Positions 21,107-24,100 of a DNA stretch of 64,000 nt are shown in pieces; position 1 is the stretch's first letter; the number at the start of each line of letters is the position of its first letter. Location: contig MCFG01000042.1 of assembly GCA_002104895.1 (NCBI GenBank), forward strand, positions 62,001 through 126,000, given 5' to 3'. The notes beneath the pieces are model-generated. The model worked only from the letters and a program-made list of their open reading frames with translations. It did no database searches and was not told the origin of the DNA. The position numbers and the translations under genes were made by a program. Source of the DNA: Anaeromyces robustus. Its lineage: Eukaryota.

Positions 21107-24100
21107 ATGGCTTTTCACTGGACTTCAAAAACCAGTAGTAATTCTTCAGCGGTAAATAATAAATCCTACTTAATATAAATACTTAATTATCAATAGAAAT
21201 AATAAAATCATTTTCAATAAATATATAAATAATTAATTTTGCGTAATAGAATTTATCTCATATATTTTAACAAAATATTTAAAAGGAATAATAATAATAA
21301 CGATAAAAAGATATATATAAATACTAAATATTAAAACATTTTATAAATGATTATATATATTAATAAAAACTGAAAATATTAATAAATTAAAATAAAATGT
21401 TTTATATTAATTATATATATTTATATGATATCTTACATGATTAAAAATATGAATATTAATCAAATATTAATATGTAAATATATATATATATATATATATA
21501 TTTTAAATTTAAATATAAATATTTTTTTATTGTCATTTATTATTTTTATAAATTAAAAAGGGTGTTGAAGATATGGTGTTACTTTCTAAAGTAACAGAAG
21601 AACAAATTGTTGAAAACCTTCGTAAAAGGTATTCATATAGTTATTTTAATTAATAAAATATATAATATATAATATATATTATATATATATGTATATTTAA
21701 TATCTATATATTGTATATGTTATTTTATTAACAAATTTGTTTTAAATATAAATAAAAAAAAAAAGATATCAAAATGATTTAATTTATACATATATTGGTC
21801 CAACATTGGTTGCTGTAAACCCATATAAACAACTTCCATATTTCACTCAAAAAGAAATTGGTATATATATAACTTTTTATTATAAAATATTTAATATTAT
21901 TGTTTTGTCAACACGTATTTCTTATAATAATAACGTTAATTTTAATCTATATTATATATAATTTATTAATATTTATTATTATATGCAATGAATATTAAAA
22001 ATAGATATGTATAGAGGAGCTGTAAGGATTTTTTTAGTTTTTATTTATTCTTAACATAATAAATTAAAAAATATAATATTATAATATAACGTCAATTATA
22101 CAATGATATATATAAATAAATAATAATAATTATTAATTAATTAGGCTTCACACGAAAATCCTCCACATATTTATGCAACAGCAGATACAATGTAAATAAC
22201 TATTATATATTATATAAATTATTTCTTAAAAATAATATTATGAAATAATTAATATATATATGTTAATTATATGACTTATATATAATTTATTTAATTAATG
22301 GAAATCATTTTATAGGTTCCAAAATATGATGACTGATGAAGAAAATCAATGTGTTATTATTAGTGGTGAAAGTGGTGCAGGTAAAGATAAAATTAACATA
22401 ATATTTTTTAAAATATAATATATAATATATAATAATTATGCTTTTATATATATATATTTATTTTATTTATTTTTTATCAATTAAATAAATAATTATAAAA
22501 TTAGGAAAAACGGAATCTGCTAAATTAATTATGTAAGTAATAATAAAATTTAAGTTTTAAATATGAATTTATAATATGTATAATAAATACTAATTTTTTT
22601 CTTTAATATATATTATAAATAAATAATTTTATTTATATATGTTTTTATTAAATATATTATATAAAAATTAAGGGTAAATTTATAATATTTTTATATCAAG
22701 AACTTTTAATTATATTAAATAAAATATTATCATATAATAGCATTTGCAAGATAATTGTATTTATAATTTATAAATTATTTATATTTATTATTACAAAATT
22801 ATTATTGATTCCTAGAATTATATTGCTGCAGTTTCAGATCGAGGTGGTTCTGGAAATAATATTGTAGAACAAGTAAAAAACATTATTTTAGGTGTAAGTT
22901 ATTAAAACTCATTACATTAAATATGAATAGAATTCAGTTATTGTATATAAAGTAATTAATGGAGTATATCTTTATATATTTTGAATCTATTGATAATATT
23001 TATAATATATGTAAAAGTCTAATCCATTATTAGAATCTTTTGGTAATGCTAAAACTTTAAGAAATAATAATTCATCACGTTTTGGTAAATATTTTGAAAT
23101 TCGTTTCTTGAGAGGTGGTCAACCAGTTGGTGGTAATATTTCAAATTTCTTACTTGAAAAGGTAAAATAAATAAATAAATAAATAAATAAAATAAAATAA
23201 AATAAAATAAAATAAAATAAAATAAAATAAAATAAAATAAAATAAAATAAAATAAAATAAAATAAAATAAAATAAAATAAAATAAAATAAAATAAAATAA
23301 AATAAAATAAAATAAAATAAAATAAAATAAAATAAAATAAAATAAAATAAAATAAAATAAAATAAAATAAAATAAAATAAAATAAAATAAAATAAAATAA
23401 AATAAAATAAAATAAAATAAAATAAAATAAAATAAAATAAAATAAAATAAAATAAAATAAAATAAAATAAAATAAAATAAAATAAAATAAAATAAAATAA
23501 AATAAAATAAAATAAAATAAAATAAAATAAAATAAAATAAAATAAAATAAAATAAAATAAAATAAAATAAAATAAAATAAAATAAAATAAAATAAAATAA
23601 AATAAAATAAAATAAAATAAAATAAAATAAAATAAAATAAAATAAAATAAAATAAAATAAAATAAAATAAAATAAAATAAAATAAAATAAAATAAAATAA
23701 AATAAAATAAAATAAAATAAAATAAAATAAAATAAAATAAAATAAAATAAAATAAAATAAAATAAAATAAAATAAAATAAAATAAAATAAAATAAATGTT
23801 TTAAAATTATATAAAAATTATATATATAATATTTTTATAATAAATAAGTAATATATATTATAACTGATATATCTTATTCTTTTATTTTTTTACTATTATA
23901 TTTAAAAATTATAAATAATAAATAACATATATAATTATATATTTTAAATCAAACAAATATTTTTATATTATATATACATATATTATATCATATACACCAT
24001 TAAATAAAATACATATATAATAAATTACTTTTATTTTATTTTGTTTTATTTTTTTTTTTCTTTTATAATTTTTAGTCTCGTGTTGTTTCTCCAGGAAAAA

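What the first reader, a model, noticed from the sequence alone, without database searches (positions are those of the whole stretch)
22505..22893. Putative single-nucleotide exon (G22673) in the myosin-I motor domain
Seen: the P-loop exon ends ...GCT AAA TTA ATT AT|GTAAGT (22532) and the next obvious exon starts TAG|AAT TAT ATT GCT (22816). Direct joining is one base short and hits TAG at 22865-22867. Known: class I myosins read GKT..AK.IM.YI here, so exactly one base is missing, with G giving the conserved Met. Seen: near the midpoint of this G-poor 283-nt interval lies TTAAG|G|GTAAAT (22668-22679), an acceptor, one G and a donor, with a TACTAAT branch point at 22588-22594. Using it gives ATG (AKLIMNYIAAVS), two introns of 140 and 142 nt that are similar in size to the neighbouring introns, and a 3423-nt open CDS. 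Inference: a 1-nt exon included by sequential splicing. Such exons are very rare, and skipping it would act as an on/off switch through a premature stop.
Basis: partly seen in the sequence, partly recalled or inferred. Interest (0 to 1): 0.9.

Follow-up and report, generated by a model that had tools for sequence, protein, structure and literature searches.

The report
One-base exon in fungal myosin gene
A myosin-I gene of an anaerobic gut fungus needs a single G, sitting alone between two ordinary introns, to keep its reading frame; such one-base exons are rare but already known, and here they have broken most of the public gene models examined.

Summary
Exon 7 ends ...ATTAT|GTAAGT at 22532 and exon 8 starts CCTAG|AATTAT at 22816. 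Direct joining shifts the frame to TAG 22865-22867. TTAAG|G|GTAAAT lies mid-interval.

Transcript-derived proteins settle that the mRNA carries the extra G. All 17 that cover the junction, from four 90%-identity clusters (a fifth holds only the P. finnis model), read AKLIMNYIAAVS, and Met has one codon.

An exhaustive GT-AG exon-chain search against one of these proteins (1140 aa, 14 contigs) allows one solution at the junction. That solution is a 1-nt exon, G22673, between introns of 140 and 142 nt. Six neighbouring introns measure 123-144 nt. It is the only one of 16 G's in the interval flanked by AG and GT.

Five of eight NCBI gene models from Anaeromyces, Piromyces and Neocallimastix are wrong at this junction. 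This argues against a one-off assembly error.

A chytrid-like metagenome relative has the same 28-nt exon, then one 95-nt intron, with the G starting the next exon.

Not shown: use of the internal splice sites, raw-read support for the assembly, and AG-G-GT in orthologues. The on/off switch idea has no support. One-base exons are published for Arabidopsis, Fusarium and Coprinopsis, so this is a new member of a known kind.

The parts
21107..27298 (+). Long-tailed class I myosin gene (myosin head, TH1 tail, SH3). It has 13 exons, a 3423-nt CDS and 1140 aa.
   Evidence: The exon chain translates exactly to the transcript-derived protein P0243. Precomputed Pfam hits are PF00063, PF06017 and SH3 families. 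The NCBI Anaeromyces robustus model P0241 also maps exactly onto the window, except for its invented microexon.
22505..22532 (+). Exon 7, 28 nt, encoding (G)KTESAKLI plus the AT of the Met codon. It ends in phase 2.
   Evidence: The same 28-nt exon with the same boundaries occurs in the metagenome relative L001.
22533..22672 (+). Intron A, 140 nt, GTAAGT...TTAAG. It is probably the ancestral intron at this position.
   Evidence: L001 has a single 95-nt intron starting after the same AT.
22588..22594 (+). TACTAAT, a candidate branch point of intron A. The evidence is weak.
   Evidence: The motif is present. Its branch A lies 79 nt from the 22672 acceptor. Other introns of the gene show no consistent YTRAY position.
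22673..22673 (+). The 1-nt exon. This G is the third base of the Met codon ATG in AKLIMNYI.
   Evidence: It is the unique GT-AG solution for the observed protein. It is the only one of 16 G's in the interval flanked by AG and GT. 17 of 17 transcript-derived proteins have Met here.
22674..22815 (+). Intron B, 142 nt, GTAAAT...CCTAG. It is probably the younger intron, absent from L001.
   Evidence: GTAAAT is also the donor of 2 of the gene's other 10 introns, and AAG acceptors are used by 3 of those 10.
22741..22756 (+). A 16-nt pseudo-microexon (CATTTGCAAGATAATT) that the public A. robustus gene model uses to restore the frame. It is not real.
   Evidence: P0241 maps to the window only with this exon, giving AKLIIICKIINYI and a 59-nt intron. 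None of the 4 transcript-derived proteins in the same cluster carries the insert.
22816..22893 (+). Exon 8, 78 nt, encoding [26 protein letters not shown]. An in-frame TAG lies immediately upstream at 22813-22815.
22865..22867 (+). The premature TAG that is reached if the 1-nt exon is skipped.

Best explanation
G22673 is a constitutive single-nucleotide exon of a class I myosin gene. The primary transcript carries two ordinary U2-type GT-AG introns separated by this one G. Intron A is 22533-22672 (140 nt, GTAAGT...TTAAG). Intron B is 22674-22815 (142 nt, GTAAAT...CCTAG). Removing both gives ...ATT AT-G-AAT TAT..., which restores the conserved Met of [13 protein letters not shown] just after the P-loop.

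The acceptor of intron A and the donor of intron B overlap within a few bases. The two introns therefore almost certainly cannot be processed at the same time and must be removed one after the other. Either order leaves a normal site: ATG|GTAAAT after A is removed, or TTAAG|GAAT after B is removed. This resembles a recursive-splicing ratchet point that keeps one base.

What is shown: the mRNA has the G, and this is the only canonical solution. What is inferred: use of the two internal sites, the sequential order, and the origin. The proposed origin is gain of intron B one base downstream of an older intron whose 3' exon once began with this G, as it still does in L001.
For: 1. The mRNA has the G.
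- P0243 comes from 14 Logan contigs, the longest 3850 nt, against a gene span of about 6.2 kb. It is therefore cDNA. It translates exactly from the window's exons and reads AKLIMNYIAAVS.
- 17 of 17 Logan or JGI proteins that cover the junction, from four 90%-identity clusters, read the same.
- Met has a single codon, so the added base is G.

2. The solution is unique.
- An exhaustive search of GT-AG chains with introns of 40-1200 nt gives only exon 22673-22673 at this junction.
- 1 of 16 G's in the interval has AG before it and GT after it.

3. The motif is unlikely by chance. The estimates are 0.8-2% for the motif and 0.04-0.07% for the motif placed so that both halves fall in the modal intron size.

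4. Intron sizes fit. Six neighbouring introns measure 137, 144, 123, 124, 124 and 124 nt, and the halves measure 140 and 142 nt.

5. The splice-site types are used elsewhere in the gene: GTAAAT donors twice and AAG acceptors three times.

6. It is not a one-off assembly error. NCBI models of A. robustus, N. lanati, P. finnis, Piromyces sp. E2 and N. californiae are all wrong at exactly this junction. The errors are a 16-nt fake microexon, a 25-nt fake microexon, a downstream alternative acceptor, and exon 7 skipped in the last two.

7. There is precedent. The Fusarium CYP621A 1-nt exon has the same AGGGT in an intron more than twice the median length (passages). Arabidopsis APC11 is a second case. 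The Coprinopsis annotation holds 13 such exons (passage).
Against: - No read-level evidence was obtained, so no splicing intermediates or lariats, and no nucleotide-level junction, were seen.
- The mature mRNA is explained equally well by a single intron shifted by one base.
- No orthologous genomic DNA from anaerobic fungi could be fetched, so conservation of AG-G-GT is untested.
- Three of eight NCBI models read the junction correctly: P0251, P0252 and P0259, all Neocallimastix. Their exon structure is unknown. They could be normal paralogues.
- Two of the five faulty models simply skip the 28-nt exon, which could reflect its small size alone.
- No convincing branch point lies close to the 22672 acceptor.
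- The chance estimates rest on about six independent background sites.
Confidence: 0.82

Rival explanations
1. A single 282-nt non-canonical intron shifted by one base. It would be either TA...AG (22534-22815, keeping G22533) or GT...TA (22533-22814, keeping G22815). The mid-interval AGGGTAAAT would then be a coincidence.
For: It yields exactly the same mature mRNA and protein as observed. No intermediate was seen that would rule it out. Correct NCBI models in Neocallimastix (P0251, P0252, P0259) could have been built from transcript alignments with such a shifted junction.
Against: TA-AG and GT-TA boundaries are not among the accepted spliceosomal classes (established knowledge, not tested here). 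The donor GTAAGT and acceptor CCTAG are perfect canonical sites in the canonical register. The reading requires a coincidence of 0.8-2%, or 0.04-0.07% once placement is counted. A 282-nt intron falls outside the 123-144 nt class of its six neighbours.
Confidence: 0.08
2. An artefact of the DNA record. Either the assembly dropped one G of a GG (ATGGTAAGT or CCTAGGAAT), or this locus is a frameshifted copy and the transcripts come from an intact twin elsewhere in the genome.
For: Single-base homopolymer deletions are common in long-read assemblies of AT-rich genomes (general knowledge). L001 shows the normal arrangement CACCAG|GAATTAT. Neither reads nor the whole genome could be examined.
Against: The same junction defeats gene models in four other assemblies from two other genera. 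Three of the five faulty models keep exon 7 and still cannot reach exon 8 in frame. The other 1139 codons of the window translate to the transcript protein without a mismatch or further frameshift, which is not pseudogene-like. Only one A. robustus model lies in the 90%-identity cluster. This reading again needs the AGGGTAAAT coincidence.
Confidence: 0.06
3. The public annotation is right, and a 16-nt microexon (22741-22756) restores the frame, giving AKLIIICKIINYI.
For: It is a formally valid GT-AG chain and is the deposited A. robustus model, P0241.
Against: None of the 4 transcript-derived proteins of the same cluster, and none of the 17 overall, carries the insert. It disrupts a motif that is otherwise kept, with conservative S/A and I/L/V changes, in myosin-I relatives. 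It needs a 59-nt intron in a gene whose other introns are all >= 123 nt.
Confidence: 0.01

Closest known systems
Fusarium CYP621A one-nucleotide exon (Int J Mol Sci 2026, PMC12940212; passages read)
   Same: It is a fungal gene with the identical AG-G-GT (AGGGT) core. The G completes a codon in a conserved motif. The enclosing interval is more than twice the usual intron length. The automatic gene models are wrong at the site, and support comes from public transcript data.
   Different: It belongs to a different phylum (Ascomycota) and a different gene family (P450), with short introns of about 56 nt. There the AGGGT was shown aligned in 24 genes. Here the orthologous introns could not be seen.
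Arabidopsis APC11 single-nucleotide exon (Guo and Liu 2015, PMC4674806; abstract and Discussion read)
   Same: It is a constitutive 1-nt exon between two canonical introns. The authors also argue that the two introns cannot be spliced together and propose intron definition combined with stepwise, recursive-like removal.
   Different: It is a plant gene and was proven with reporter constructs and base substitutions. Nothing comparable was done here.
Coprinopsis cinerea long-read annotation, with 13 one-nt exons in 13 genes (Cell Genomics 2025, PMC12230235; one passage read)
   Same: It shows that 1-nt exons recur in a fungal genome and that leaving them out creates premature stops.
   Different: These are catalogue entries in a basidiomycete with no locus-level analysis. 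No myosin case was mentioned in the passage I saw.
Recursive splicing ratchet points (zero-length exons, AG|GT); recalled, and cited within PMC4674806's Discussion
   Same: An acceptor and a donor are juxtaposed inside a non-coding interval, and removal is stepwise, regenerating a usable splice site.
   Different: A ratchet point leaves no base in the mRNA and serves very long introns. Here one base is kept and the introns are about 140 nt.
Spliceosomal twin introns (stwintrons; PMC5639578, one unrelated passage read; the definition is from that paper's search-listing abstract)
   Same: Two spliceosomal introns sit in one interval of a fungal gene and must be excised consecutively.
   Different: In a stwintron the inner intron interrupts a splice motif of the outer one, and nothing remains between them. 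Here all four splice sites are intact in the primary transcript and one base is retained.

Membership tests
Single-nucleotide exon | The mature mRNA contains one base that joining the flanking exons at their canonical sites does not supply. | tested here: met
   Direct joining shifts the frame to TAG 22865-22867. 17 of 17 transcript-derived proteins read AKLIMNYI. This is protein-level evidence; the nucleotide junction itself was not seen.
Single-nucleotide exon | That base exists in the intervening DNA, flanked by AG upstream and GT downstream, giving two canonical introns of workable size. | tested here: met
   It is the unique solution of the exhaustive chain search. 1 of 16 G's qualifies. 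The introns measure 140 and 142 nt.
Single-nucleotide exon | The genomic sequence is correct, with no dropped base at either flanking junction. | tested here: inconclusive
Indirectly, 5 of 8 NCBI models from five assemblies fail at this junction.
Single-nucleotide exon | The internal acceptor and donor are really used, as shown by partly spliced intermediates, lariats or mutational tests. | not testable with these tools
A search for short N-terminal ORFs ending in AKLIM or AKLIMVNL found none among the 120 listed hits.
Single-nucleotide exon | AG-N-GT is conserved at the same place in orthologues. | not testable with these tools
   No anaerobic-fungus genomic DNA was found in metagenome contigs, genome contigs or viral contigs. 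The only hit, L001, is a distant relative without the second intron.
Stwintron | An internal intron interrupts the donor, acceptor or branch motif of an external intron, so the outer site exists only after the first excision. | tested here: not met
   GTAAGT, TTAAG, GTAAAT and CCTAG are all intact in the genomic sequence, and one base is retained.
Recursive splice site (zero-length exon) | AG|GT are directly juxtaposed and no nucleotide is kept. | tested here: not met
   One G lies between the AG and the GT and is needed in the mRNA. No AGGT or AG-N(0-3)-GT lies inside any other intron of the gene.
U12-type (minor) intron | A rigid RTATCCTT donor and a TCCTTAAC-like branch site (recalled consensus). 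| tested here: not met
   The donors are GTAAGT and GTAAAT.
Class I myosin, long-tailed (Myo1e/f-like) | A myosin head with P-loop GESGAGKT, a TH1 tail and a C-terminal SH3 domain. | tested here: met
   Precomputed Pfam hits for P0001 are PF00063, PF06017 and PF00018/PF07653/PF14604. The closest named relatives are fungal and animal myosin-Ie.

The most novel reading that the evidence does not exclude
The one-base exon is not a private oddity of one species. It would be an old, fixed feature of the myosin-I gene across Neocallimastigomycota (Anaeromyces, Piromyces, Neocallimastix). It would have arisen when a new intron landed one base downstream of an older, chytrid-shared intron, and it would be processed by obligatorily ordered, recursive-like splicing. 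That would make it the most widely conserved 1-nt exon known, in an essential motor's nucleotide-binding region. It would also be a natural substrate for asking how a spliceosome handles an exon too short to be bound. A bolder add-on is that inclusion is regulated, so that skipping acts as an expression switch.
Probability: 0.5. Interest if true: 0.65.

Novelty: new member of a known kind. Interest (0 to 1): 0.5.

Why it matters
The first consequence is for annotation. Five of the eight public protein models examined for this conserved motor gene carry invented or deleted residues next to the P-loop, because gene finders cannot place a one-base exon. Any comparative or structural work that uses those models inherits the error, and the same fault probably hides elsewhere in these intron-dense, AT-rich genomes.

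The second is for biology. The case extends 1-nt exons to early-diverging fungi and to a housekeeping cytoskeletal gene. L001 suggests how such an exon can arise, namely by intron gain one base away from an existing intron.

The third is for mechanism. This is a compact natural case (140 nt + 1 nt + 142 nt) for testing ordered or recursive-like splicing under intron definition.

None of my literature searches listed a report of this in anaerobic fungi or in myosins.

Tried and rejected
- Whole-genome search for paralogues: no genome is held for this window.
- Read evidence: 24 runs were listed for the big exon, 20 holding it and 10 on record as RNA. No reads or contigs were seen.
- Orthologous genomic DNA: a degenerate exon-7/donor pattern found only L001 in metagenome contigs. 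It found nothing in genome contigs or viral contigs. Protein-seeded scans of genome contigs and viral contigs found no relative. Genomic contigs of relatives evidently exist, because the ORFs P0247, P0248, P0263, P0266 and P0268 run into an intron. I had no tool left to fetch them.
- Splicing intermediates at the protein level: the expected ORFs would end in ...AKLIM* or ...AKLIMVNL*. The 'shorter' search listed 120 of 1294 hits, and the only close relative among them was the N. californiae model P0121. This is uninformative.
- Intron B as a tandem duplicate of intron A: rejected. The global alignment z-score is 0.94, 95 of 500 shuffles score as high, and the score is no better than for other intron pairs.
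- Branch-point support: no consistent YTRAY position exists among the gene's introns, so the TACTAAT argument was dropped.
- A second possible 1-nt exon at AGGGT 47956: it lies in AT-rich DNA that shows no coding ORF, so I treated it as background.
- Not attempted: the third homology search, on the intron-spanning ORF 22652-22867, because the chance of success seemed too low for its cost.
- Not opened: paper supplements. The Fusarium paper's Table S1 and Figure S1 might show how NCBI represents such exons.
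Full report
WHAT IS IN THE SEQUENCE

The window is extremely AT-rich, with 9,469 G+C among 64,000 bases. It carries on its + strand an intron-dense gene for a long-tailed class I myosin.

The finding's coordinates are exact.
- Exon 7 (22505-22532) ends GCT AAA TTA ATT AT, followed by GTAAGT.
- TTAAG-G-GTAAAT lies at 22668-22679.
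- CCTAG precedes AAT TAT ATT GCT at 22816.
- An in-frame TAG (22813-22815) stops exon 8 from extending upstream, and ATG TAA stops exon 7 from extending downstream.
- Joining 22532 to 22816 gives ...[21 protein letters not shown] and stops at TAG 22865-22867.

THE mRNA HAS THE EXTRA G

I could not lay reads. Instead I searched the large 3' exon against the protein collection, which includes ORFs from de novo contigs of public runs.

P0001 and its cluster mates P0242, P0243 and P0245 come from contigs of 3.4-3.9 kb. The gene spans about 6.2 kb, so these are cDNA. All read [26 protein letters not shown]. P0243, seen on 14 contigs, translates from the window's exons without a single mismatch over 1140 residues.

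The look-up covered six clusters at 90% identity. Four of them hold transcript-derived proteins that cover the junction, and 17 of 17 such proteins read AKLIMNYIAAVS. Those four clusters also hold the A. robustus, N. californiae/N. lanati and Piromyces sp. E2 models, plus one cluster without a named member. The P. finnis model and the truncated N. californiae model P0121 each sit alone in a cluster. Nine further cluster members do not reach the junction and were left out of the count. Since Met has one codon, the base added between ATTAT and AATTAT is G.

The run index adds that 20 runs hold the large exon. Ten are on record as RNA, with word shares near the value expected for spliced mRNA.

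ONLY ONE CANONICAL SOLUTION

I ran an exhaustive search for chains of exons of any length >= 1 nt, separated by GT-AG introns of 40-1200 nt, that translate to P0243. It returned solutions that differ only in trivial placements of the last bases and the stop codon. At this junction all of them use exon 22673-22673.

Of the 16 G's between 22533 and 22815, only G22673 has AG before it and GT after it. The CDS is then 3423 nt.

Intron lengths are 409, 137, 144, 123, 124, 124, [140, 142], 124, 914, 213 and 175 nt. The two halves fall into the tight size class of their six neighbours, whereas a single intron of 282-283 nt would not.

GTAAAT is also the donor of two other introns of the gene, and AAG is the acceptor of three.

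IS THE MOTIF CHANCE?

- AGGGT occurs 20 times on both strands of the window. Most sites lie in or at the edge of GC-richer coding sequence.
- Among 59,554 overlapping AT-rich 283-nt windows elsewhere, 2.0% contain AGGGT with both flanks >= 40 nt.
- 0.87% contain AGGGTA, and 0.067% contain AGGGT placed so that both halves measure 123-144 nt.
- A second-order Markov model gives 1.2%, 0.76% and 0.039%.
- The search tool's shuffles expect 3.75 AGGGTAA per 128 kb.
- No other AG-N(0-3)-GT lies inside any of the gene's introns, 2769 nt in all.

These background figures rest on few independent sites. They agree that a coincidence has a probability of about one in a hundred or less.

ASSEMBLY ERROR?

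This was the strongest prior rival, because L001 shows that a normal gene would read AG|GAAT. I could not inspect genomic reads or the rest of the genome.

The public annotations give indirect evidence.
- The A. robustus model (P0241, ORX85002.1) maps onto the window exactly, but only by inventing a 16-nt microexon at 22741-22756. That gives AKLIIICKIINYI and a 59-nt intron.
- The N. lanati model P0258 invents a 25-nt one (AKLIIFNFILIIINYI).
- The P. finnis model P0004 jumps to a downstream acceptor (AKLII|GGSGSN).
- The Piromyces sp. E2 model (P0002) and the N. californiae model (P0121) skip exon 7, reading [12 protein letters not shown].

So 5 of 8 NCBI models, from five assemblies in three genera, fail at this junction. 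Three of those five keep exon 7 and still cannot reach exon 8 in frame. That is what a shared one-base deficit predicts, and it is very unlikely for independent sequencing errors.

Against this, 3 of 8 models read correctly: P0251, P0252 and P0259, all Neocallimastix. I cannot see their exon structure. They may be transcript-derived models or normally built paralogues.

A RELATIVE WITHOUT THE ODDITY

A degenerate pattern for exon 7 plus a donor found one metagenome contig, L001. Its myosin is 62-67% identical to chytrid myosin-Ie.

It has the same 28-nt exon with the same upstream intron position. A single 95-nt intron follows (ATCAT|GTGAGT...CACCAG|GAATTATATA), so the G is the first base of the next exon.

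The phase-2 intron inside the Met codon is therefore older than the anaerobic fungi. The simplest history is that a second intron was gained immediately after that G. I found no sign that intron B is a copy of intron A (z = 0.94).

MECHANISM

It is shown that the mRNA has the G and that a unique canonical two-intron solution exists.

The rest is inferred. The acceptor of intron A and the donor of intron B share a five-base stretch, so the two introns are most likely removed one after the other under intron definition. Each first step leaves a normal site for the second. This is the model proposed for Arabidopsis APC11 (Discussion). It resembles recursive splicing, except that one base is kept. 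Which intron goes first is unknown.

The TACTAAT at 22588-22594 lies 79 nt from the acceptor. The gene's other introns show no consistent branch motif, so I give it little weight.

Nothing speaks for regulated skipping. Every full-length transcript-derived protein includes the base, and a skip product would be a 138-residue truncation.

COMPARISON AND NOVELTY

One-base exons are published in three places.
- Arabidopsis APC11 was proven with reporters.
- The Coprinopsis cinerea long-read annotation holds 13 of them.

The present case is not a stwintron, because all four splice sites are intact and a base is retained. It is not a zero-length recursive site, and it is not U12-type.

Three literature searches listed no report for anaerobic fungi or myosins.
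- 28 papers matched the terms for 1-nt exons, and 25 were listed.
- 20 papers matched, and 15 were listed.
- 558 papers matched, and 40 were listed, none combining an anaerobic-fungus genus with a microexon or recursive-splicing term.

I file it as a new member of a known kind.

VERDICT

The 1-nt exon is the best explanation at about 0.8. The rivals are a one-base-shifted non-canonical intron (about 0.08), a faulty or duplicate DNA record (about 0.06) and the annotated 16-nt microexon (about 0.01). Interest is moderate. The case is a clean and probably phylum-wide example with clear consequences for annotation, but the phenomenon itself is no longer new.

Noticed in passing
window 23162-24075: The 914-nt intron after exon 9 consists mostly of a perfect (AAATA)n microsatellite running from about 23190 to 23795. 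GC is 0.000 over several hundred bases.
   Followed up: no
window 22005-22021: The same gene has a 17-nt micro-exon (exon 4) as well as the 28-nt exon 7. Ten of its twelve introns crowd into the first ~590 nt of CDS, ahead of a single 2691-nt exon. Four introns measure 123-124 nt.
   Followed up: partly
window 24094-24096 (codon 203): The transcript-derived protein P0001 reads SPEKNERNF, where the window, P0243, P0242 and the NCBI model read SPGKNERNF. This is a single G/E difference, either a polymorphism or a contig error.
   Followed up: no
L001 3034-2911 (minus strand of the locus): An unidentified chytrid-like eukaryote in a metagenome shares the 28-nt P-loop exon and both flanking intron positions with the anaerobic fungi. 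It lacks the introns at 22674-22815 and 22894-23017.
   Followed up: partly
window 47956-47960, 62765-62769 (+); 47390-47394, 36288-36292 (-): These are the only other AGGGT sites embedded in AT-rich, apparently non-coding DNA. 47956 reads TATAAG-AG-G-GTATTA. No coding context was visible, so I treated them as background.
   Followed up: partly
window 44980-45310: A long trinucleotide-type repeat gives poly-Ile, poly-Asn and poly-Tyr ORFs in several frames on both strands.
   Followed up: no
proteins P0257, P0247, P0248, P0263, P0266, P0268: Some database proteins of relatives run from the large exon, or the SH3 exon, straight into intron sequence. They are intron-retaining transcripts or ORFs called on genomic contigs. 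Genomic contigs of related anaerobic fungi therefore exist in public metagenomes, though I could not fetch them.
   Followed up: no
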